From IMG/VR virus record IMGVR_UViG_3300037756_000059, positions 1-52,795 of that record: DNA of 52,795 nt. One strand, given 5' to 3'. Every line of letters begins with the position of its first letter. The first letter of the stretch is position 1. The notes beneath the pieces are model-generated. The model ran no database searches. It was given only the letters and a program-made list of their open reading frames with translations, and was not told the origin of the DNA. The DNA is from a virus (taxonomy: Duplodnaviria > Caudoviricetes). The translations under genes were made by a program, and so were the position numbers. Positions 5,096 through 28,565 of the stretch are shown here, one piece after another.

Positions 5096-7041
5096 CAGTC
5101 CCACCACGAATCGTAGATGCCAGGGTCGTAGCCGTTCGGAATCCCGATCAGCTCTGTGTGCTGCAGCCGCTCATCCAGCTCGGTGTCGAAGTAGTCCCGG
5201 ACGAAGCCGGTGTCCTCGTCGCCCTTGTACGACACGATCAGCTCTCGAGCGCGGATCTCGGCGAACCACCAGGCCATCAGGATGTCGGTCTTGCCCTTGG
5301 TCTCGGGGAAGAACGTGGCCGCCTGCTCGACGAACTGGCGGACCTGCTCCTTGTACTTGGGATTCGGCAGCTCGATCTGGGCGTTGTCCTTGGCGATGAG
5401 GCCGGACATGCCCATGACCCCGGCGATCGGGTCCCACTTGTTCTTGCCGGAGGTCTGGTGCGGGGACAGGATGCAGCCCATGTTGGCCAGGTCGGTGACG
5501 ATCTCCCGGTCCTGCATGATCCAGTTGGACAGCAGGACGGATTCGACGCGCCACTCCTTGACGCTGTACAGCTTCGTCCACGGGATGATGGTGGCACGGA
5601 ACTGCACTGGGGTCATGTGCGCCCGGTTCTCGACGTCGAGCAGGTACCGGAAGGCCTCGGGACGGTGCACGCCGTACACCACGAACGCGGTGTGGCCAGA
5701 CGACGCCGGGTCGATGCCGCCGATCACGTACAGGTCGTCCATGGTGGGCCGCCCCCTGGCGGCCTCCGCCATCGAGGTGGTGAGCGGGCCGGGCTTGCGG
5801 TCCTTGTTGACCACGGCCATCAGCTGCTCGCGCGGGAAGATGGCCGCGTCCTCAAGGTCGCCCTGCTGGTAACCTTGGATCCAGGCGTGCTCGCCAACGA
5901 CGTCGCGTCGCTTGGCGAGGCGGGGCCCGGACCACATCTCGTAGGTGCCGTCCTCGGCGGGCTCGGCGTCGTCGCCGAGCTGCGGCTGGTTCGAGCGGGG
6001 CCACAGCGTGACCCAGTCCCTGGGGTCCTCGGCGTACTCAAGCACCGCAGGCTGGGCGAAATACGTCCAGGCCGGCTTTACACCAGGGGCGTACCTGTCG
6101 GGGTTTCGCAACTCCTTGTACAGGTCGATCTGCGCCACGCGGGAGCCGATGACCAGGACCTTGCCCATGGCGCCCACGCGGGTGGCCACCATGCGAGTTA
6201 TCCAGTTGAACTGCTTGTCAACCTCAAGATAGTTTTCAGTATCAACGCAGTCGTCGAGGATGAACACGGTGCCGCGCTTGCCGTAAATCTGGCCCTTGAT
6301 CCCGACCGCCTGGACGGTCGGGTCCTTGGCCATCTGCTTGCGCAGCTTGGGTCCGAAGCGGATCCGGTACTGCGACCACTCGGTGCAGGCCTTCTCGTAG
6401 CCCTCCTCGGGACCGAAGTCGTCCTGCAGGTCCGAGAACGTGGGGTTCGTCAAGAACTCCTTGATGCCGGACAGGAAGTCCGCCGCCATCTCCCGGTTCT
6501 TGGAGACGATGGTGATCAGCTGTTCGGGGTCCTTGAGGATCTTCCAGGTGACCCAGGCCATGGTGACCGTGGAGGTCTTGGCGTGCTCGGGCGGCGTGTT
6601 GACGATGATGTGCGTCCACTCGGCCGGCTCCCAGATCTGGCTGGGGTGCAGGTCGCGGGGCTCGCGGTTCTCCAGGACGTCGAACCACTGCAGCTGGTGC
6701 CAGTGCAGGCGCCAGCCCAGGTACCTCTCGCAGAACTCGGGGAAGTCGGGGACCTCCGGGCGGCCCTCCGTGCGAGCCCGAGACAGGCGACCGCTCACGC
6801 GGTCGGCCTGCTCCTTGAACTCGGGGTAGCGTTGCCGCCACTTCTCGTACGTGGACTCCGAATAGCCGACGAGGCGCATGGCCTCGGCCACCGTGTGGCC
6901 CTCGGAGCGGCGCTCAAGGAACTTGGCCTGGGCCAGCTCGCGGTTCAGCCTCGTGTGCTTGGTGCCGCCCGGAGCCCCACCGTTCTCGGTGGGCTCCTTG
7001 CGGCGCGGGCCACGCTCGGCTTCGACGCGAATCCTAGCCAT
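5095..7041 (-). CDS. terL: Terminase large subunit with N-terminal HTH-like extension
   Basis: Walker A-like PPEHAKT, Walker B FILDD, YQQ motif, nuclease GIDPA and C-terminal TDILMAWWF. Confidence 0.92.
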   Translation of the reverse strand: MARIRVEAERGPRRKEPTENGGAPGGTKHTRLNRELAQAKFLERRSEGHTVAEAMRLVGYSESTYEKWRQRYPEFKEQADRVSGRLSRARTEGRPEVPDFPEFCERYLGWRLHWHQLQWFDVLENREPRDLHPSQIWEPAEWTHIIVNTPPEHAKTSTVTMAWVTWKILKDPEQLITIVSKNREMAADFLSGIKEFLTNPTFSDLQDDFGPEEGYEKACTEWSQYRIRFGPKLRKQMAKDPTVQAVGIKGQIYGKRGTVFILDDCVDTENYLEVDKQFNWITRMVATRVGAMGKVLVIGSRVAQIDLYKELRNPDRYAPGVKPAWTYFAQPAVLEYAEDPRDWVTLWPRSNQPQLGDDAEPAEDGTYEMWSGPRLAKRRDVVGEHAWIQGYQQGDLEDAAIFPREQLMAVVNKDRKPGPLTTSMAEAARGRPTMDDLYVIGGIDPASSGHTAFVVYGVHRPEAFRYLLDVENRAHMTPVQFRATIIPWTKLYSVKEWRVESVLLSNWIMQDREIVTDLANMGCILSPHQTSGKNKWDPIAGVMGMSGLIAKDNAQIELPNPKYKEQVRQFVEQAATFFPETKGKTDILMAWWFAEIRARELIVSYKGDEDTGFVRDYFDTELDERLQHTELIGIPNGYDPGIYDSWWD

Positions 7042-11294: not shown

Positions 11295-11906
11295 ATGAGC
11301 GAGTACGAGCACAACCGCGTGCCCTTCCCCGAGTACGCGTGGGCACTGTCGCGGGCGTGGGACACGCGTCCCGAGGTATCGGCAAGCGTCACGGACTATC
11401 GCGACGCGGCCATGATCTACGACGGCGCGGCATACCTCGCCGCAGACCGTCAATCAGGATTCTTAATCAGTGGCACTGGTGAGCTTGCCGGCGTGTTCTC
11501 CACGATGCGCGGTCGCGGTGATTCCATCATGCGGGACGCGCTGCACTACGGTGCGACGCACCTAGATTGTTTCGACGGTTACCTGCCGACGTTCTACGCG
11601 CGGCACGGCTTCCGCGAGACGCGACGCGTACCGAACTGGGCACCCAGCGGTCCCGACGTTGTCTACATGGCACTGTCGACGGACCGCGTAGACCCTGCCG
11701 TGCACCCTGACTCCCCGGAGGCGTGGGCGAAAGCACTTGCCGACCTCGCGGAGGCGGCGGACACGGGCCCGTCGGACTTCGAGGACTCCGCTACGATCAA
11801 GGCTACGGCGATCCGCGCGGCCCTGGAAGCCGAACTAGACGCGGCCCTAGAAGAGGGTGACGGTCTGATCGACGCGATCATGTCAGTGATCGAGAGAGTT
11901 ATCTGA
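11295..11906 (+). CDS. GNAT-like acetyltransferase-fold protein with acidic C-terminal extension
   Basis: ELAGVFS..RGRG, LDCFDGYLPTFYARHGF.E..R..NW...GPDVVYM. Confidence 0.6.
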   Translation: MSEYEHNRVPFPEYAWALSRAWDTRPEVSASVTDYRDAAMIYDGAAYLAADRQSGFLISGTGELAGVFSTMRGRGDSIMRDALHYGATHLDCFDGYLPTFYARHGFRETRRVPNWAPSGPDVVYMALSTDRVDPAVHPDSPEAWAKALADLAEAADTGPSDFEDSATIKATAIRAALEAELDAALEEGDGLIDAIMSVIERVI

Positions 11907-11964
11907 GTGTCGCAGTGTGGCGGTCGGCAGGATTGCCGACCGCTGCGCTGGTCAACTCAGGCCA
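11903..11964 (+). repeat. 62-bp dispersed hairpin repeat, copy 1
   Basis: CTGAGTGTCGCAGTGTGGCGGTCGGCAGGATTGCCGACCGCTGCGCTGGTCAACTCAGGCCA, identical at 12411 and 14256. Confidence 0.95.
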
Positions 11965-12410: not shown

Positions 12411-12472
12411 CTGAGTGTCGCAGTGTGGCGGTCGGCAGGATTGCCGACCGCTGCGCTGGTCAACTCAGGCCA
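12411..12472 (+). repeat. 62-bp dispersed hairpin repeat, copy 2
   Basis: Identical to 11903-11964. Confidence 0.95.
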
Positions 12473-13138: not shown

Positions 13139-13175
13139 TAGAACACGAAGTGACGCGACGAGAGGAGAAATGATC

Positions 13176-13757
13176 ATGCGTCCACTAACCCGGAATATCG
13201 TACGCACGTACTTGCGTGCTACGCCCGAACAGCACGCCCAGGGCGTGGCATGGTACCAGAATGCGCACGAGCTTGCGTGCGAGCTGGAAGACGTTTGGGC
13301 CAGCACGCCGGGCCCCGTTGAGCGCGGCGCAGGTGTCATTGCCGCACTCTCGCCCACGATTCAATGGGAACGGAATGCCGCACTCGCTCGCAAGGCGTAC
13401 CTTGCCGGCGTGGCGAGCGGAACCTACTCCGCAAACACGCGCAAGGCCACGGCCATTCTGCAGGGTGCCGACCCCGTCGACGTTCTGCGCGGCCCCAAGG
13501 TCACCGCATTCTACGCGGGCATCATCGCCCCCGAGGGCACCGACGTTGTGTGCGTGGACCGCCACGCGCATGATGTCGCCGTGGGCCGACGCTGCACCGA
13601 CGAGGAGCGCGGCGCGCTCACTTCCAAGCGCGGCTACGCCACCTTCGTGCGCGCCTACCGGCGCGCCGCCGATCAGCTCGGAATGCCCGCAAACCACTTG
13701 CAGGCCATCACTTGGCTCGTGTGGCGCGACGAGTACCGTTGGACGCGTGCATCATGA
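13176..13757 (+). CDS. Conserved phage protein, probable HhH/DNA-glycosylase-like fold
   Basis: G.AWY..AH, GVIAALSP...W..N, GPKV..FY, VCVDRHA, LQAITW..WR. Confidence 0.6.
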   Translation: MRPLTRNIVRTYLRATPEQHAQGVAWYQNAHELACELEDVWASTPGPVERGAGVIAALSPTIQWERNAALARKAYLAGVASGTYSANTRKATAILQGADPVDVLRGPKVTAFYAGIIAPEGTDVVCVDRHAHDVAVGRRCTDEERGALTSKRGYATFVRAYRRAADQLGMPANHLQAITWLVWRDEYRWTRAS

Positions 13758-13966: not shown

Positions 13967-14259
13967 ACGACTACGACCTGGCGTACGCTGCGCGCCGCTT
14001 CGGACGCGGCTGGTCCAGCAACACGCCCAATCGCGCGGCGCTGGTCGCGCACGTCGACGCGCTGCGTCGTTGGGCCGACGACAATAGCGACGGCTGGGCC
14101 TACTGGCCCAAGCCGGCGCGCGCGGCACGCCGTGCAATGGAGTTGATCCAGAGCACGACCAATGCAGCGAACTACGCGCAAGAGCGCGAGGACATCACAG
14201 ATCGCGAGTTCCGCGAGGCCTTGCGTCCAATCAAGGCGTTCTACAAGCGCCACGGCTGA
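13954..14259 (+). CDS. Hypothetical early protein
   Basis: 101 aa, start-associated motif upstream; stop codon lies in repeat copy 3. Confidence 0.8.
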   Translation: MLYMNDYDLAYAARRFGRGWSSNTPNRAALVAHVDALRRWADDNSDGWAYWPKPARAARRAMELIQSTTNAANYAQEREDITDREFREALRPIKAFYKRHG

Positions 14260-14317
14260 GTGTCGCAGTGTGGCGGTCGGCAGGATTGCCGACCGCTGCG
14301 CTGGTCAACTCAGGCCA
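14256..14317 (+). repeat. 62-bp dispersed hairpin repeat, copy 3
   Basis: Identical to 11903-11964. Confidence 0.95.
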
Positions 14318-14971: not shown

Positions 14972-15033
14972 CCTTACGTAACGCATGGCGCACGGGGACC
15001 TCCTCTCCCCCGTGCGCCGTGTGAGTCGTAGGG
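14972..15033 (+). other. Intergenic two-stem hairpin (family member)
   Basis: CCTTACG/CGTAGGG lower stem, 3x3 internal loop, 16-bp upper stem with G-U pairs. Confidence 0.7.
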
Positions 15034-15037
15034 CTCA

Positions 15038-15046
15038 TGCTACAAT
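15038..15046 (+). promoter_or_regulatory. Candidate extended -10 promoter
   Basis: TG-C-TACAAT. Confidence 0.45.
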
Positions 15047-15082
15047 GGGTAGCGAACGACTCGACCGAGAGGAGCACCCACC

Positions 15083-15349
15083 ATGTACAGCACGATTTCC
15101 CAGATCCAGCGCCGGCACGAGGGCCACTGGTTCAGCGCCGACACGATGCGCTTCTTCGGAAGCAAGATCGAGAGCGGCGTGATCAATGGCCGCTACTTCG
15201 TCTCGTCCGAGGACAACTTCGACCGCACCGCGCGATTCTACTCGGTGCGCGTCGCAGACGACGAGGGCGAGATTGGCACGTGGGGCGAGTTTCAGGCCTA
15301 CGAGACGCTGGCCGAAGCCCGCGCCGCCGCAGAGGCGGCGCCGGCATGA
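15083..15349 (+). CDS. Conserved small phage protein
   Basis: 88 aa; HWFS.DTMRFFGS...YFVSSE..R.YSVR; GAGAGGAG SD. Confidence 0.8.
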   Translation: MYSTISQIQRRHEGHWFSADTMRFFGSKIESGVINGRYFVSSEDNFDRTARFYSVRVADDEGEIGTWGEFQAYETLAEARAAAEAAPA

Positions 15350-15612
15350 CACCGGAGCAGGCCAGTGCTGCCGCCACGGTGGCACTGGCCTCCGACCTAG
15401 AGATGATCTTGCGCCACCGGGCCGACGCGGCCGGGCGCGTGGGGGTCAACGAGATTCTGCGCGTCCTCGACGAGTACCGCGAGGCCGCCGCACCCGAACT
15501 GGAGGCACTTGTGAGGGACGACAACGCGAGCCCGGACCTGATCCTCGGGATTCCGGCCGACGAACTGGGAGGCTGGCTCTGGGAAGAGTGGCCCGAGCTG
15601 GAGGCACCATGA
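15346..15612 (+). CDS. Hypothetical protein
   Basis: ATGA coupling. Confidence 0.7.
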   Translation: MTPEQASAAATVALASDLEMILRHRADAAGRVGVNEILRVLDEYREAAAPELEALVRDDNASPDLILGIPADELGGWLWEEWPELEAP

Positions 15613-15812
15613 ACACTTCGACAGCCCTGCACCTGCAGCCCGGCGACACGATCACCGCAAAACAGGGCGCGCCCTCCGCGCGCCACTACGCGGTGATCAA
15701 GATCCAGGGCGGACCCAACACGCCGAGCGTGGACATCTTCGTTCAGGATCCTGACCAGCTCGCCGCCATCGCGACCGCGTGCGACCGGGCCCTTGTGGAA
15801 TGGCCCAAGTAG
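15609..15812 (+). CDS. Hypothetical protein
   Basis: ATGA coupling, GGAGG SD. Confidence 0.7.
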   Translation: MNTSTALHLQPGDTITAKQGAPSARHYAVIKIQGGPNTPSVDIFVQDPDQLAAIATACDRALVEWPK

Positions 15813-15882
15813 GAGTAGTATTCAGACATGGCACCGCGCGAGTTGGGCAAGGCAACCGAGCCCCCGCCGCGCGGTGCCCCAA

Positions 15883-15953
15883 GGGGGCGAACGGCAAGCG
15901 GTGCAGCGCCACGACGGGCTCGCCGAACCTGGGTTCGATTCCCAGCGCCTCCA
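15883..15953 (+). ncRNA. tRNA/tmRNA-like small RNA (acceptor stem with G3-U70, canonical T arm, no canonical anticodon arm)
   Basis: GGGGGCG...CTGGG-TTCGATT-CCCAG-CGCCTCC-A in an intergenic gap. Confidence 0.6.
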
Positions 15954-15987
15954 CGCCAAGCAAGATCACTACAACGAATGGAGCACC

Positions 15988-16227
15988 ATGGCGAAGGCCA
16001 CCATCCCCGAGCCGCAGCCGGTTACGCTGCTGCTCTCGCGCGAAGAGGCCGAGGATCTGCGCGGCCTGCTGTTCGGCCACGTGGGCATGAACAGCGCCTC
16101 CGCAAGGCTGACGGCCATATCCGACGCCCTGGGGTTCATCGGCGTTCAGCCGACGAAGTTCATCGTCAGCGACGACCGAGGGCTCGGAGGCAACGTAATC
16201 ATCCTGCAACGAATGGAGACCGCATGA
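15988..16227 (+). CDS. Hypothetical protein
   Basis: GGAG SD, MAKATIPEP. Confidence 0.7.
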   Translation: MAKATIPEPQPVTLLLSREEAEDLRGLLFGHVGMNSASARLTAISDALGFIGVQPTKFIVSDDRGLGGNVIILQRMETA

Positions 16228-16460
16228 GCAGCAAGCACCACAGCAAGCACGAACGCGGCAAGTCCAACTACCCCAAGCGCCTGTCCGCGCGCGGCCTGAG
16301 CCGCGCGCCCAAGATGCCCGACCTGGACACGCTGCGCGCTCGGCGCAACGCCGAGTCGTTCCCGGCAGCCCTGGACGAGCACCTGCGACACGTCGCAGCC
16401 GTCCAGACGCGGCAGCCGCTGTACTACGGACGCCGGCCCTACGACATCTCGGCCCCCTGA
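16224..16460 (+). CDS. Hypothetical basic protein
   Basis: ATGA coupling; MSSKHHSKHERG. Confidence 0.7.
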   Translation: MSSKHHSKHERGKSNYPKRLSARGLSRAPKMPDLDTLRARRNAESFPAALDEHLRHVAAVQTRQPLYYGRRPYDISAP

Positions 16461-16474
16461 GAGGAGAAACGATC

Positions 16475-16645
16475 ATGCCAGGACCACTAAGCGGTCTCAA
16501 CTACCCCGGCGCGCACGCCAAGGCCAAGTGCCAGCAGCGCCACGAATGCAAGGGCCCCGGATGCCGAGTACGCAGCGGCAAGACCGAGGCCAAGCGCCGC
16601 CAGCGGCGCATCCGCGACACAAAGGTGAGGTTCGACAATGTCTAG
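16475..16645 (+). CDS. Hypothetical basic Cys-containing protein (not in ORF track)
   Basis: GAGGAGAAACGATCATG start; MPGPLSGLNYPG, 56 aa. Confidence 0.65.
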   Translation: MPGPLSGLNYPGAHAKAKCQQRHECKGPGCRVRSGKTEAKRRQRRIRDTKVRFDNV

Positions 16646-16763
16646 CCCCACCCGCGAAGTCATCGCCGCGCAGAACGGCGACTACGACGACCCCGAAGAG
16701 TACGAAGCCGGCATGGCGCAGCTCGAGGCCGAGCGGCGCCGCTACTGGGAGGAGCACGCCTGA
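16638..16763 (+). CDS. Hypothetical acidic peptide (not in ORF track)
   Basis: MSSPTREVIAAQNGDYDDPEEY..., 41 aa, GAGG SD. Confidence 0.55.
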   Translation: MSSPTREVIAAQNGDYDDPEEYEAGMAQLEAERRRYWEEHA

Positions 16764-16921
16764 TGCTACAACTCGCCTACGTCTGTTTCGCGAGCCTGGT
16801 GGTCGGCCTCATGGCAGGCGAGGCCGGCCCCGCTGGGGCCGTCCTCGGCCTGCTGCTCGCACTCGCGCTCGGCGCAATCCTGCGCTGGGCCACCGCCGAC
16901 ATCGAGGAGAACCGAAAGTGA
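16763..16921 (+). CDS. Small membrane protein (not in ORF track)
   Basis: TGATG coupling, GGAGG SD, two hydrophobic segments, 52 aa. Confidence 0.6.
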   Translation: MLQLAYVCFASLVVGLMAGEAGPAGAVLGLLLALALGAILRWATADIEENRK

Positions 16922-17211
16922 AGAGCCTGGAGATCGAACTGAGCGACCTCGCCGAGCGCGTGGCTCGCGAGAACTACGAGACGAACCGCCAGCGCGTCCC
17001 CGGCGAAACGTCCTGGGACGACCTCAACGTCTCGACGCGGCGACTCTTCGCCCGCGCAGTCAAGAACAAGATCGTCTTGGCGGCGCCGGACATCGTCAAC
17101 GCGACGCTGCTGTGGGCGGCCAACGAAGCCGATGGGCGCGACCCGTTCTTCGCCATGAGGCTTCGCCGGGCAGCGTTTCGGGTGAGCACGAGGGGGGAGG
17201 TCCTGCCCTGA
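16918..17211 (+). CDS. Hypothetical protein
   Basis: GTGA coupling, GAGGAG SD. Confidence 0.7.
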   Translation: MKSLEIELSDLAERVARENYETNRQRVPGETSWDDLNVSTRRLFARAVKNKIVLAAPDIVNATLLWAANEADGRDPFFAMRLRRAAFRVSTRGEVLP

Positions 17212-28260: not shown

Positions 28261-28565
28261 CTGCCGGTAAACATCGCTACGTCTCTGCGGCCGAGAAGCG
28301 CGCCGAATTGGTGGCCGAAGGCAAAGAGCGGCGCAATTGTGAATGCCACGGAATGCCAATGCGTTGGCGACCAAGCTCACGCTACTCGGCGGGCGGAGCG
28401 TGGGATTGCCAGGTGAGGCGTCTTGAGCGGCAACGTCGACGACGACAGCGAAGGACGCCCCTGGAGAGACTGAAAGACAACGAATACTTGCGCCAATACA
28501 TGGCACGAAGGGCCGACGAGCGGGACTCCCAACGTCTCGCCACGCTACTCAAGGAGACTCAGTAA
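28257..28565 (+). CDS. Hypothetical basic Cys-containing protein
   Basis: ATGA coupling; CECHG.PM.W..WDC. Confidence 0.65.
   Translation: MTAGKHRYVSAAEKRAELVAEGKERRNCECHGMPMRWRPSSRYSAGGAWDCQVRRLERQRRRRQRRTPLERLKDNEYLRQYMARRADERDSQRLATLLKETQ

What the first reader, a model, noticed from the sequence alone, without database searches (positions are those of the whole stretch)
15830..15958. 71-nt tRNA/tmRNA-like RNA with the alanine identity pair but no anticodon arm or tag ORF
Seen: acceptor stem GGGGGCG/CGCCTCC with G3-U70 and discriminator A (15953), and a canonical T arm CTGGG-TTCGATT-CCCAG. The 5' GGGGGCGAACGG resembles tmRNA 5' ends. The middle 39 nt give no 5-bp/7-nt anticodon arm; CGGC.AGC/GCT.GCCG can pair instead. 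An 11-bp hairpin (15830-15878) lies just upstream. Established: G3-U70 specifies AlaRS charging, and tmRNA has such a tRNA-like domain. Inference: a minimal tRNA mimic, for example an SmpB/EF-Tu/AlaRS decoy, a decoy for tRNA-targeting defences, or an RNase P/Z processing signal.
Basis: partly seen in the sequence, partly recalled or inferred. Interest (0 to 1): 0.75.

Follow-up and report, generated by a model that had tools for sequence, protein, structure and literature searches.

The report
Phage mini-tmRNA without a tag
This phage carries a 71-base RNA gene that copies only the tRNA-like end of the bacterial ribosome-rescue RNA (tmRNA), a kind of element reported once before in a mycobacteriophage and thought to interfere with the host's ribosome rescue.

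Summary
Window 15883-15953 (+) has a 7-bp acceptor stem with G3:U70, discriminator A, a canonical T arm and no anticodon arm. An 11-bp perfect hairpin lies upstream.

It is not an unknown tRNA mimic. [quoted passage not shown] Rfam's tmRNA model aligns end to end with 306 central positions deleted, at 32-40.6 bits, below the gathering score of 47. The published 'TLD only' tmRNA of mycobacteriophage DS6A gives the same kind of hit at 43.2 bits.

A covariance model built from 16 other phage elements scores the window at 55.7 bits, DS6A at 54.4 and the best phage tRNA-Ala-like match at 37.6. I found about 60 distinct such elements in viral contigs. Unannotated ones occur in cultured Streptomyces and Stenotrophomonas phages. 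Their central helix covaries.

Strain variants from other sediment metagenomes conserve the element while the flanks diverge. The single change seen, U20>C, strengthens the predicted helix.

The most likely function is engagement of host AlaRS and SmpB to block or rewire trans-translation. That is inferred, not shown. I rate it a new member of a known, little-studied kind.

The parts
15883..15953 (+). Predicted mature TLD-only mini-tmRNA, 71 nt; CCA is not encoded
   Evidence: Rfam tmRNA spans model 1-374 with 306 positions deleted. Model R1 gives 55.7 bits.
15883..15889 (+). Acceptor stem, 5' strand GGGGGCG; G3 is 15885
   Evidence: Read directly. Pairs 7 of 7 with 15946-15952 in the MFE fold.
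15890..15898 (+). Unpaired 9-nt D-loop analogue AACGGCAAG. It keeps a GG but lacks the family's UUCGAC-type motif.
   Evidence: MFE fold. Most of the 60 family sequences folded have an unpaired D analogue of 9-14 nt.
15899..15925 (+). P2-like helix that replaces the anticodon arm: CGGUG/CGCCG, AGC/GCU and CC/GG with loop ACGAC
   Evidence: Pair probability about 0.9. The natural variant 15902 T>C turns U:G into C:G. The helix covaries across the family.
15926..15928 (+). 3-nt linker AAC before the T arm; the family has xAC here
15929..15945 (+). T arm CTGGG-TTCGATT-CCCAG
   Evidence: The 23 bases from its third base to the discriminator (15931-15953) are identical to the 3' ends of bacterial tmRNA genes.
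15946..15953 (+). Acceptor stem, 3' strand CGCCTCC (U70 is 15950), plus discriminator A15953
15830..15878 (+). Upstream GC-rich hairpin with an 11-bp perfect stem, ending 4 nt before the RNA's 5' end. Probably a terminator or 3'-end protector of the upstream mRNA, or a 5' leader removed by RNase P. This is inference.
   Evidence: No substitutions in the two variant contigs that cover it. Of 60 family members, 13 have strong upstream hairpins, several with U tracts.
15609..15812 (+). Upstream small ORF, 67 aa, no family hit (context only)
15988..16227 (+). Downstream small ORF, 79 aa, with a GGAG ribosome-binding site at 15980-15983; no family hit (context only)

Best explanation
The element is a phage-encoded 'TLD-only' mini-tmRNA. 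It is a homologue of tmRNA that keeps only the tRNA-like domain: the acceptor stem with G3:U70 and A73, a stemless D-loop analogue, the T arm, and a short P2-like helix where the anticodon arm would be. It has lost the tag reading frame and the pseudoknots.

The proposed mechanism is inferred from established tmRNA biology.
1. The RNA is transcribed with the early genes.
2. It is cut at G15883 by RNase P, trimmed at its 3' end and given CCA.
3. It is charged with alanine by the host AlaRS and bound by the host SmpB and EF-Tu. The phage encodes no SmpB.
4. With nothing to resume translation on, it competes with the host tmRNA for SmpB and for stalled ribosomes. The result is that ssrA tagging and trans-translation are damped or blocked during infection.
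For: Identity as a tmRNA tRNA-like domain:
- The Rfam tmRNA model aligns end to end with only the central 306 positions deleted (32 bits, E 2.3e-11; 40.6 bits).
- The published DS6A 'TLD only' tmRNA behaves the same way: 43.2 bits, model 1-374.
- The 23-mer from the T arm to the discriminator occurs exactly in 53 bacterial species genomes. All 16 loci checked place it at the 3' end of a tmRNA gene (15 of about 340-375 nt, one of 136 nt), and none at a tRNA. The 15 whose 5' end was read begin GGGGGCGA.

Family membership:
- Model R1 was built from 16 other phage elements, without the window or DS6A.
- It scores the window at 55.7 bits and DS6A at 54.4. The best tRNA-Ala-like phage match in the same search scores 37.6.
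- The window fits the common family geometry of a 9-14 nt D analogue, a helix and a 3-nt xAC linker.

Structure of the family:
- Of 62 sequences, 41 have a perfect 5-bp helix at the fixed geometry. Shuffles give a mean of 6.8 and a maximum of 17.
- On 62 distinct rows, all 7 pairs of the central helix show changes on both sides and 83% of cells are paired. Over the whole structure, 93.9% of cells are paired, against 45-56% when partners are slid.

Selection on this copy:
- One variant contig (X3 record 11, 15733-15965) has 10 differences in the last 80 nt of the upstream ORF but 2 in the following 153 nt. Fisher p = 5e-4.
- The only change inside the element, 15902 T>C, appears in contigs from two runs. 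It converts U:G to C:G in the predicted helix, shifting the energy from -33.1 to -35.0 kcal/mol.
- The spacer just downstream carries 1-3 nt indels.

Need for host factors: no SmpB domain was found in the window or in any of 20 other TLD-carrying phage records.

Mechanism, from the literature:
- PMC4131195 states that a molecule like the DS6A TLD strongly inhibits tmRNA, chargeable or not, perhaps by titrating SmpB, citing Mao et al. 2009 (passage read).
- PMC11915505 repeats that it inhibits endogenous tmRNA in E. coli (passage read).
- PMC3895274 notes peptidyl transfer to a TLD-only tmRNA in vitro (passage read).
Against: - No expression data exist. No RNA run holds the stretch, and no promoter or terminator on the + strand was found by the consensus scan.
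- The Rfam score is below the gathering threshold. That model also gives sub-threshold matches in all 4 archaeal control genomes, which have no tmRNA, so a sub-threshold hit alone could be a tRNA.
- The fold energy of the element alone is not exceptional.
- This copy lacks the UUCGAC-type D-loop motif and has GAAC rather than GGAC before the T arm. These motifs are in the Rfam consensus and in most family members. From recalled structural work they lie where SmpB binds, so SmpB binding is less certain here than for DS6A.
- The CM alignment placed the window's central helix out of register. Support for the helix in this copy therefore rests on the MFE fold and one natural variant.
- Conservation in related phages could not be tested. 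The only close relative's contig ends before this region.
- I could not read Mao et al. 2009 itself.
Confidence: 0.55

Rival explanations
1. Same molecule, opposite effect: tag-less ribosome rescue. Ala-TLD with host SmpB enters stalled ribosomes and accepts the nascent chain. The complex is then resolved by other factors. Ribosomes are freed for phage translation, and phage proteins are not marked for proteolysis.
For: - Jakobid mitochondria keep tmRNAs that lack the mRNA-like domain, read as restricting function to liberating stalled ribosomes (PMC3590771, passage read).
- CDS-less plastid forms of about 65 bp have been reported (PMC11915505, passage read).
- Peptidyl transfer to a TLD-only RNA occurs in vitro (PMC3895274, passage read).
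- Alanine identity is kept in the four elements that were not recruited by a pattern fixing it: DS6A, LuckySocke, Jojan60 and the window.
Against: - As cited by PMC4131195, a similar molecule inhibited tmRNA in E. coli whether or not it was chargeable. That points to titration rather than productive rescue.
- No release mechanism is known for peptidyl-Ala-TLD in bacteria.
Confidence: 0.2
2. A tRNA-like processing signal. The fold serves only as an RNase P/RNase Z cleavage site that separates the upstream and downstream early mRNAs. The upstream hairpin protects the new 3' end.
For: - The element lies between two co-oriented small ORFs, 35 nt before the next start codon, with a strong hairpin ending 4 nt before the predicted RNase P site.
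- Of 60 family members, 13 have strong hairpins just upstream.
Against: - RNase P/Z recognition does not need G3:U70, A73 or a covarying central helix, yet these are kept.
- In Streptomyces phages the homologous element sits inside a tRNA gene array, like a gene.
Confidence: 0.1
3. A decaying phage tRNA-Ala gene or captured tmRNA fragment with no present function.
For: - ARAGORN and Rfam at gathering thresholds call nothing.
- The fold energy is not exceptional.
- The D-loop motif is degenerate compared with the family.
Against: - The element is far more conserved than the flanking coding sequence among strain variants, and its one change strengthens a pair.
- All 12 acceptor and T-stem pairs are intact.
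- It scores with the TLD-only family (55.7 bits), not with the tRNA-Ala-like matches (37.6 bits at best).
Confidence: 0.07
4. An attP core or integration remnant that matches the 3' end of a host tmRNA or tRNA gene.
For: - tmRNA genes are common integration sites (PMC11915505 abstract).
- The 3' 23-mer is identical to many bacterial tmRNA 3' ends.
Against: - An attP needs only the 3' part, but here the 5' acceptor strand is present and pairs 7 of 7.
- No tyrosine integrase or serine recombinase domain was found in the 52.8-kb record, which is about 81% complete.
- Only 5 of 20 other TLD-carrying phage records have a tyrosine integrase. In DS6A it lies about 10 kb away.
- None of the 53 exact genomic matches is titled as an actinobacterium, while the phage looks like an actinophage.
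Confidence: 0.04
5. The stretch is protein-coding: ORF 15828-16460 (+) or ORF 15697-16500 (-), both of which overlap it.
For: Long ORFs overlap the region on both strands.
Against: - At 67% GC, long spurious ORFs are expected.
- Variant contigs carry 1-nt indels at 15965-15987 that would break the + strand ORF.
- The downstream gene has its own ribosome-binding site and ATG at 15988.
Confidence: 0.02

Closest known systems
'TLD only' tmRNA of Mycobacterium phage DS6A (tmRNA Website tmID 11587; Hudson, Lau and Williams 2014, PMC4131195; Mao et al. 2009, not read)
   Same: - Phage-borne, about 70-80 nt, lying between protein genes.
- 7-bp acceptor stem with G3:U70 and discriminator A, a T arm with loop TTCGATT, and a central helix in place of the tmRNA body.
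- No tag ORF and no encoded CCA.
- Sub-threshold, full-span Rfam tmRNA hit: 43.2 bits against 40.6 for the window.
- Similar R1 scores: 54.4 against 55.7.
   Different: - DS6A keeps a GGTCGAC-type D-loop analogue and a longer internal loop. The window has a 9-nt analogue without that motif, and GAAC rather than GCAC/GGAC before the T arm.
- DS6A has an integrase; the window shows none.
- The flanking genes are unrelated.
Unannotated TLD-only elements in cultured phages: Streptomyces phages LuckySocke, GiJojo, pSt2308, Alone3 and BRock, and Stenotrophomonas virus Jojan60
   Same: - Same architecture.
- LuckySocke, pSt2308 and Jojan60 have the same T arm, CTGGG-TTCGATT(or TTCAATT)-CCCAG.
- The inner hairpin is similar: GCCGCACGCGG against GCGCCACGACGGG in the window.
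   Different: - They pass Rfam's gathering score, at 57.1 and 61.8 bits, because they keep the UUCGAC and GGAC motifs.
- In the Streptomyces phages they lie within or beside tRNA genes (an array in LuckySocke and Alone3), whereas the window has no tRNA genes.
Bacterial tmRNA (ssrA, Rfam RF00023)
   Same: The acceptor stem, alanine identity, T arm and the start of helix P2 are shared. The 23 nt at the 3' end are identical to tmRNAs of Myxococcota, Thermodesulfobacteriota, Dadabacteria and others.
   Different: The element lacks about 300 nt: the resume codon, tag ORF and pseudoknots. It cannot template tagging.
Reduced tmRNAs of jakobid mitochondria and of some plastids, which lack an mRNA-like domain
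   Same: A TLD with a G:U third pair and discriminator A is retained without a tag frame (PMC3590771; PMC11915505).
   Different: - They are organellar and mostly two-piece or permuted.
- They are the sole tmRNA of their compartment, so they are presumed to rescue ribosomes rather than to compete with a resident tmRNA.
Full-length phage tmRNAs, such as mycobacteriophage Bxz1-type, Gordonia phage GMA2 and Melnitz two-piece
   Same: All are phage-encoded ssrA homologues (PMC4131195; PMC9004378).
   Different: Those keep the coding part. GMA2 is 412 nt and scores 94.6 bits.

Membership tests
tmRNA (Rfam RF00023) in the strict sense | Score at or above the curated gathering threshold of 47 bits | tested here: not met
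   32 bits and 40.6 bits; no match at gathering level
tmRNA (Rfam RF00023) in the strict sense | mRNA-like domain with resume codon and tag reading frame, plus pseudoknots | tested here: not met
   Only 39 nt lie between the acceptor and the T arm. 306 model positions are deleted. ARAGORN finds no tag peptide.
tmRNA tRNA-like domain (TLD) | 7-bp acceptor stem with G3:U70 and discriminator A, the alanine identity elements | tested here: met
   The identity elements are named in PMC3985003 and PMC3590771 (passages read).
tmRNA tRNA-like domain (TLD) | T arm with a 5-bp stem and 7-nt loop matching the tmRNA consensus | tested here: met
   Aligned to the consensus GGGUUCGAuUCCC. Identical to bona fide tmRNA 3' ends.
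tmRNA tRNA-like domain (TLD) | No anticodon arm; a helix (P2) leaves the junction in its place | tested here: met
   MFE fold and pair probabilities; natural variant U20>C
tmRNA tRNA-like domain (TLD) | Stemless D-loop analogue with a GG and the UUCGAC motif, and GGAC before the T stem | tested here: inconclusive
   The GG is present, at 15893-15894. UUCGAC is absent, and the window has GAAC instead of GGAC. A subgroup of family members also has AAC.
tmRNA tRNA-like domain (TLD) | Charged by AlaRS; bound by SmpB and EF-Tu | not testable with these tools
   Needs biochemistry
Phage TLD-only mini-tmRNA (DS6A type) | Contiguous 5' and 3' TLD halves joined by a short hairpin, about 60-85 nt, in a phage genome | tested here: met
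   71 nt in a viral record with terminase, capsid and other phage genes
Phage TLD-only mini-tmRNA (DS6A type) | Scores with a covariance model of the class, above ordinary tRNA-Ala | tested here: met
   R1 gives 55.7 bits for the window, 54.4 for DS6A and at most 37.6 for tRNA-Ala-like matches. The window and DS6A were not in the seed.
Phage TLD-only mini-tmRNA (DS6A type) | Inhibits host trans-translation | not testable with these tools
   Reported for a DS6A-like molecule in E. coli, according to PMC4131195 and PMC11915505. The primary paper is not held.
Canonical tRNA-Ala | D arm and anticodon arm with an NGC anticodon; called by ARAGORN or by Rfam tRNA | tested here: not met
   No ARAGORN call. 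No Rfam tRNA match at gathering level. In the E-value scan, tmRNA outscored the clan's other member, which was left out as lower-scoring.
attP overlapping a t(m)RNA gene | Integrase in the phage, and only the 3' part of the t(m)RNA present | tested here: not met
   No PF00589 or PF00239. Both acceptor strands are present. The record is only about 81% complete.

The most novel reading that the evidence does not exclude
TLD-only mini-tmRNAs may be a widespread, almost entirely unannotated class of phage RNAs that take over the host's AlaRS/SmpB/EF-Tu ribosome-rescue entry point. They occur across hosts from 34% to 69% GC and in both early and head-morphogenesis modules.

This window's variant has lost the UUCGAC and GGAC motifs. 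It may therefore represent a subtype that works differently from the DS6A type. It could act as an SmpB-independent sink, or as a tag-less rescuer that counters defences which stall ribosomes by cutting mRNA or tRNA.
Probability: 0.2. Interest if true: 0.75.

Novelty: new member of a known kind. Interest (0 to 1): 0.45.

Why it matters
Trans-translation is the main ribosome-rescue route in bacteria. The only phage TLD-only tmRNA named in the papers I could search is DS6A.

This window adds a second, structurally trimmed example from an actinophage-like genome. The follow-up suggests the class is common.
- About 60 distinct elements turned up from one capped scan of viral contigs.
- Homologues exist in five cultured Streptomyces phages and one Stenotrophomonas phage. 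There they are unannotated or overlaid by 'hypothetical protein' calls.

ARAGORN calls none of them as tmRNA. Rfam at gathering score misses the two weakest tested, the window and DS6A.

If these RNAs do titrate SmpB or rewire rescue, they are a simple, portable phage tool against a conserved host pathway. They are also genetically tractable in the laboratory Streptomyces host of LuckySocke and Alone3.

Tried and rejected
Orthologues in related phages:
- The downstream 79-aa protein has no relatives in viral contigs.
- Terminase relatives gave 7 loci. The only tmRNA-model hit in 5 of those records, at 19.4 bits, is an ordinary tRNA region.
- The closest relative's contig ends at the equivalent of window position ~13540, before the element.
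- BLAST of 15000-17000 against cultured phages found nothing.
- BLAST of 15820-15965 gave only T-arm-length hits. Those hits did lead to the cultured-phage elements.

Metagenome scans:
- A pattern keeping the window's first 12 and last 25 bases found 0 contigs.
- The relaxed pattern found 1 contig, L211, a core-type element and not an orthologue.

Expression:
- No RNA holder is listed among the sequencing runs.
- The laid runs were DNA contigs only. In run X2, no contig covers 15842-15909.

Promoter and terminator scan: nothing on the + strand near the element. By eye I saw a possible TTGTGG-17 nt-TAGTAT upstream of the hairpin. It falls below the scan's criteria, and I make no claim from it.

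Alignment:
- MAFFT alignments A1-A3 misplace the 5' end or the central helix. RNAalifold on A1 recovered only the acceptor and T stems.
- I therefore built R1 from A4 with a hand-given structure.
- The CM-fitted alignment leans towards that structure and put the window's own helix out of register.

Other readings considered and rejected:
- Permuted two-piece tmRNA: 13.8 bits, E 0.95.
- mascRNA-like: 21.5 bits against a gathering score of 42.5.

Host assignment from the tmRNA 3' end: the exact matches are all outside Actinomycetota by title. This conflicts with the WhiB domain and the Streptomyces-phage terminase affinity. I leave the host as 'probably an actinobacterium'.

Tools and papers not available:
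- Mao et al. 2009 is not held.
- Supplements were not consulted. The phage tmRNA table of PMC9004378 (Table S1) might list further short forms.

Slips: my first translations of the flanking ORFs were out of frame. I redid them.

Full report
**What is there.** The window is a 52.8-kb viral record of 67% GC, linear and about 81% complete.

At 15883-15953 (+) the sequence reads GGGGGCG-AACGGCAAG-[27-nt hairpin]-AAC-CTGGGTTCGATTCCCAG-CGCCTCC-A.
- The upstream hairpin has an 11-bp perfect stem, 15830-15840 with 15868-15878.
- ARAGORN calls nothing in the window, and no Rfam family reaches its gathering score.

**What it is.** In a permissive Rfam scan, the tmRNA model RF00023 aligns over its whole length, positions 1-374, to 15883-15956, with just the central 306 positions deleted. 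The score is 32 bits, E 2.3e-11 for the 401 nt searched. The whole-record search gives 40.6 bits. Both are below the gathering score of 47.

The same search also matches in archaeal control genomes, below the cut-off, so a sub-threshold hit alone could be a tRNA. I therefore sought independent evidence. Three lines settle the identity.

1. *The 3' end is a tmRNA 3' end.* The 23 bases from the T arm to the discriminator occur exactly in 53 bacterial species genomes. I checked 16 of the 53. In all 16 they are the 3' end of a tmRNA gene (15 of about 340-375 nt, one of 136 nt) and never a tRNA. The 15 whose 5' end was read begin GGGGGCGA, like the window.

2. *The published precedent behaves the same way.* The literature describes one phage precedent. 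[quoted passage not shown] In the DS6A record the Rfam model gives the same kind of full-span, sub-threshold hit: 28478-28560, 43.2 bits.

3. *It scores with a family of phage elements.* A pattern keeping the window's acceptor and T-arm ends with a 25-50 nt gap found 24 viral contigs.
   - Of 131 distinct strings, which include offset duplicates, 64 had fully paired acceptor and T stems.
   - I then dropped two 56-nt strings and four strings with a tRNA-Ala-like anticodon loop. That left 58.
   - A covariance model (R1) was built from 16 of these, without the window or DS6A.
   - R1 scores the window at 55.7 bits and DS6A at 54.4. The best tRNA-Ala-like phage match in the same 1-Mb search scores 37.6 bits. 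The window has no other hit.

**Anatomy and the middle part.** The minimum-energy fold (-33.1 kcal/mol) leaves 9 nt unpaired after the acceptor stem, AACGGCAAG, which acts as a stemless D-loop analogue. It then forms a 10-pair interrupted helix, CGGUG/CGCCG, AGC/GCU and CC/GG, around loop ACGAC. Next come the linker AAC and the T arm.

Its pair probability is about 0.07, against about 0.9 for the MFE register.

The family favours the MFE register as well. Most of the 60 sequences folded show a 9-14 nt unpaired D analogue, a helix, and a 3-nt xAC linker.

The helix is real at family level.
- Of 62 sequences, 41 have a perfect 5-bp helix at that fixed geometry. Shuffles of the middle part give a mean of 6.8 and a maximum of 17 in 200.
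- On the CM alignment of 62 distinct rows, all 7 helix pairs show changes on both sides, with 83% of cells paired. The whole structure is 93.9% paired, against 45-56% when partners are slid by 1-3 columns.

There are four caveats.
- That alignment is fitted to the model.
- The recruiting patterns fixed G1-G4, the T loop and CTCCA. G3:U70 is therefore independent evidence only in the window, DS6A, LuckySocke and Jojan60.
- The CM put the window's own helix out of register.
- The fold energy of the element alone is not unusual for its composition, z = -0.92.

The window's copy is a trimmed variant. It keeps a GG in the D analogue but lacks the UUCGAC-type motif. It has GAAC instead of the consensus GGAC before the T stem. 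A subgroup of the family also has AAC.

**Selection on this copy.** Ten sediment-metagenome DNA runs hold part or all of the stretch. I laid four of them, all as contigs.
- One variant contig (X3 record 11, 15733-15965) has 10 differences in the last 80 nt of the upstream ORF. It has only 2 in the next 153 nt, which hold the hairpin and the element. Fisher p = 5e-4.
- The single change inside the element, 15902 T>C, appears in contigs from two runs. It turns the U:G pair of the predicted helix into C:G, shifting the energy from -33.1 to -35.0 kcal/mol.
- The 34-nt spacer after the element carries several 1-3 nt indels. The start of the downstream ORF carries many substitutions.
- Depths are low, about 4x, and only two contigs cover the element's 5' half.

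This is strain-level evidence only. No orthologue in a related phage could be examined.

**Context.** The record encodes the following:
- terminase, portal-like, capsid, tail and endolysin genes on the - strand;
- an early and replication block on the + strand, with exonuclease, DnaB-like helicase, primase, polymerase parts, a sigma-like factor and dNMP kinase.

A WhiB domain passes Pfam's cut-off, at 26.5 against 23.6 bits. The terminase is closest to Streptomyces phages, at about 40% identity. The host is therefore probably an actinobacterium.

The element lies in a 175-nt gap between two small co-oriented ORFs of unknown family, 15609-15812 and 15988-16227.

The window contains no tRNA gene, no tyrosine integrase or serine recombinase domain and no SmpB.

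**The wider class.**
- The elements occur in contigs from 34% to 69% GC.
- In ten loci with different element sequences, the element sits in a conserved head-module position, two genes upstream of a capsid gene. In others it sits next to a portal gene.
- Of 20 carrier records, none encodes SmpB. Only 5 have a tyrosine integrase.
- Among cultured phages, full-span tmRNA-model hits of 81-83 nt that pass the gathering score lie unannotated in Streptomyces phage LuckySocke (57.1 bits) and Stenotrophomonas virus Jojan60 (61.8 bits).
- BLAST finds LuckySocke homologues in GiJojo, pSt2308, Alone3 and BRock at 78-100% identity. Each has no feature or a 'hypothetical protein' annotated over it. By eye, the central helix shows compensatory changes and the inner hairpin is conserved.
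- ARAGORN run on 16 carrier loci called no tmRNA. It called one element tRNA-Ala and one an undetermined tRNA.

**How it most likely works.** Shown here: it is a conserved, structured TLD homologue, and neither it nor the other carrier phages bring their own SmpB.

From established tmRNA biology (PMC3985003, passages read):
- RNase P makes the 5' end.
- G3:U70 directs AlaRS charging.
- SmpB binds the TLD and supplies the missing lower half of the tRNA shape.
- EF-Tu delivers the complex to ribosomes with an empty A site.

From the literature on TLD-only RNAs:
- Peptidyl transfer to a TLD-only RNA occurs in vitro (PMC3895274, passage read).
- A DS6A-like molecule strongly inhibits tmRNA in E. 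coli whether or not it is chargeable, perhaps by titrating SmpB (PMC4131195, citing Mao et al. 2009, which I could not read).

My inference is that this RNA competes with host tmRNA for SmpB and for stalled ribosomes, and so damps tagging and rescue during infection. The main rival is the same molecule acting as a tag-less rescuer, as proposed for jakobid mitochondrial tmRNAs (PMC3590771, passage read).

The upstream hairpin is probably a terminator or 3'-end protector of the upstream message. Of 60 family members, 13 have strong hairpins just upstream, several with U tracts. This too is inference.

**Verdict.** The element is a new, trimmed member of a known but barely studied kind, the phage TLD-only tmRNA. 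Its interest lies less in this single copy than in how common and unannotated the class appears to be.

Noticed in passing
window 11903-11960, 12411-12468, 14256-14313: Three identical copies of a 58-nt imperfect palindrome (27-nt arms, 4-nt loop) lie between early genes. The 76%-terminase relative G001 has two matching copies at 85-86% identity. This looks like a repeated regulatory or terminator element of the early region.
   Followed up: partly
L155 (Gordonia phage GMA2, KR063281.1), locus 219-630 and 940-996: A full-length tmRNA (94.6 bits) is not annotated as RNA, and the annotated CDS Orf58 lies inside it. A Pistol ribozyme match (56.8 bits, gathering score 34.5) sits right after tRNA-Trp. 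A Y RNA-like match falls below threshold at 43.1 bits.
   Followed up: no
L157:553-630 (Streptomyces phage LuckySocke); L156:552-631 (Stenotrophomonas virus Jojan60); also GiJojo, pSt2308, Alone3, BRock: TLD-only mini-tmRNAs in cultured phages are unannotated or overlaid by 'hypothetical protein' CDS calls. In the Streptomyces phages they lie within or beside tRNA genes (an array in LuckySocke and Alone3).
   Followed up: partly
L008:5058-5133 and 5229-5303 (-); the same pair occurs in L011 and L017: Two different TLD-like elements lie about 95 nt apart in one phage contig. They score 41.7 and 37.2 bits with R1, lower than the core family.
   Followed up: no
L006, L015, L021, L054, L055, L058, L100, L102, L125, L144: These loci share conserved synteny around the element. 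A 290-480 aa gene ends 5-53 nt upstream. A ~150-200 aa gene starts about 115-130 nt downstream, followed by a Phage_capsid_3 major capsid gene. This places the RNA in the head-morphogenesis module.
   Followed up: partly
L158-L210 (53 bacterial genome contigs): The window's 3' 23-mer is identical to tmRNA 3' ends of Myxococcota, Thermodesulfobacteriota, Dadabacteria, Spirochaetia and others. No record is titled as an actinobacterium, although the phage carries a WhiB domain. The host-mimicry question is left open.
   Followed up: partly
L203:1986-2121 (Candidatus Berkelbacteria MAG): A tmRNA-model match of only 136 nt spans model 1-374 at 65.2 bits. It is a strongly shortened tmRNA in a CPR genome.
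   Followed up: no
window 15083-15349 and 13170-13757: Two early genes belong to DUF7447 (79.8 bits) and DUF7178 (185.1 bits). The function of both families is unknown.
   Followed up: no
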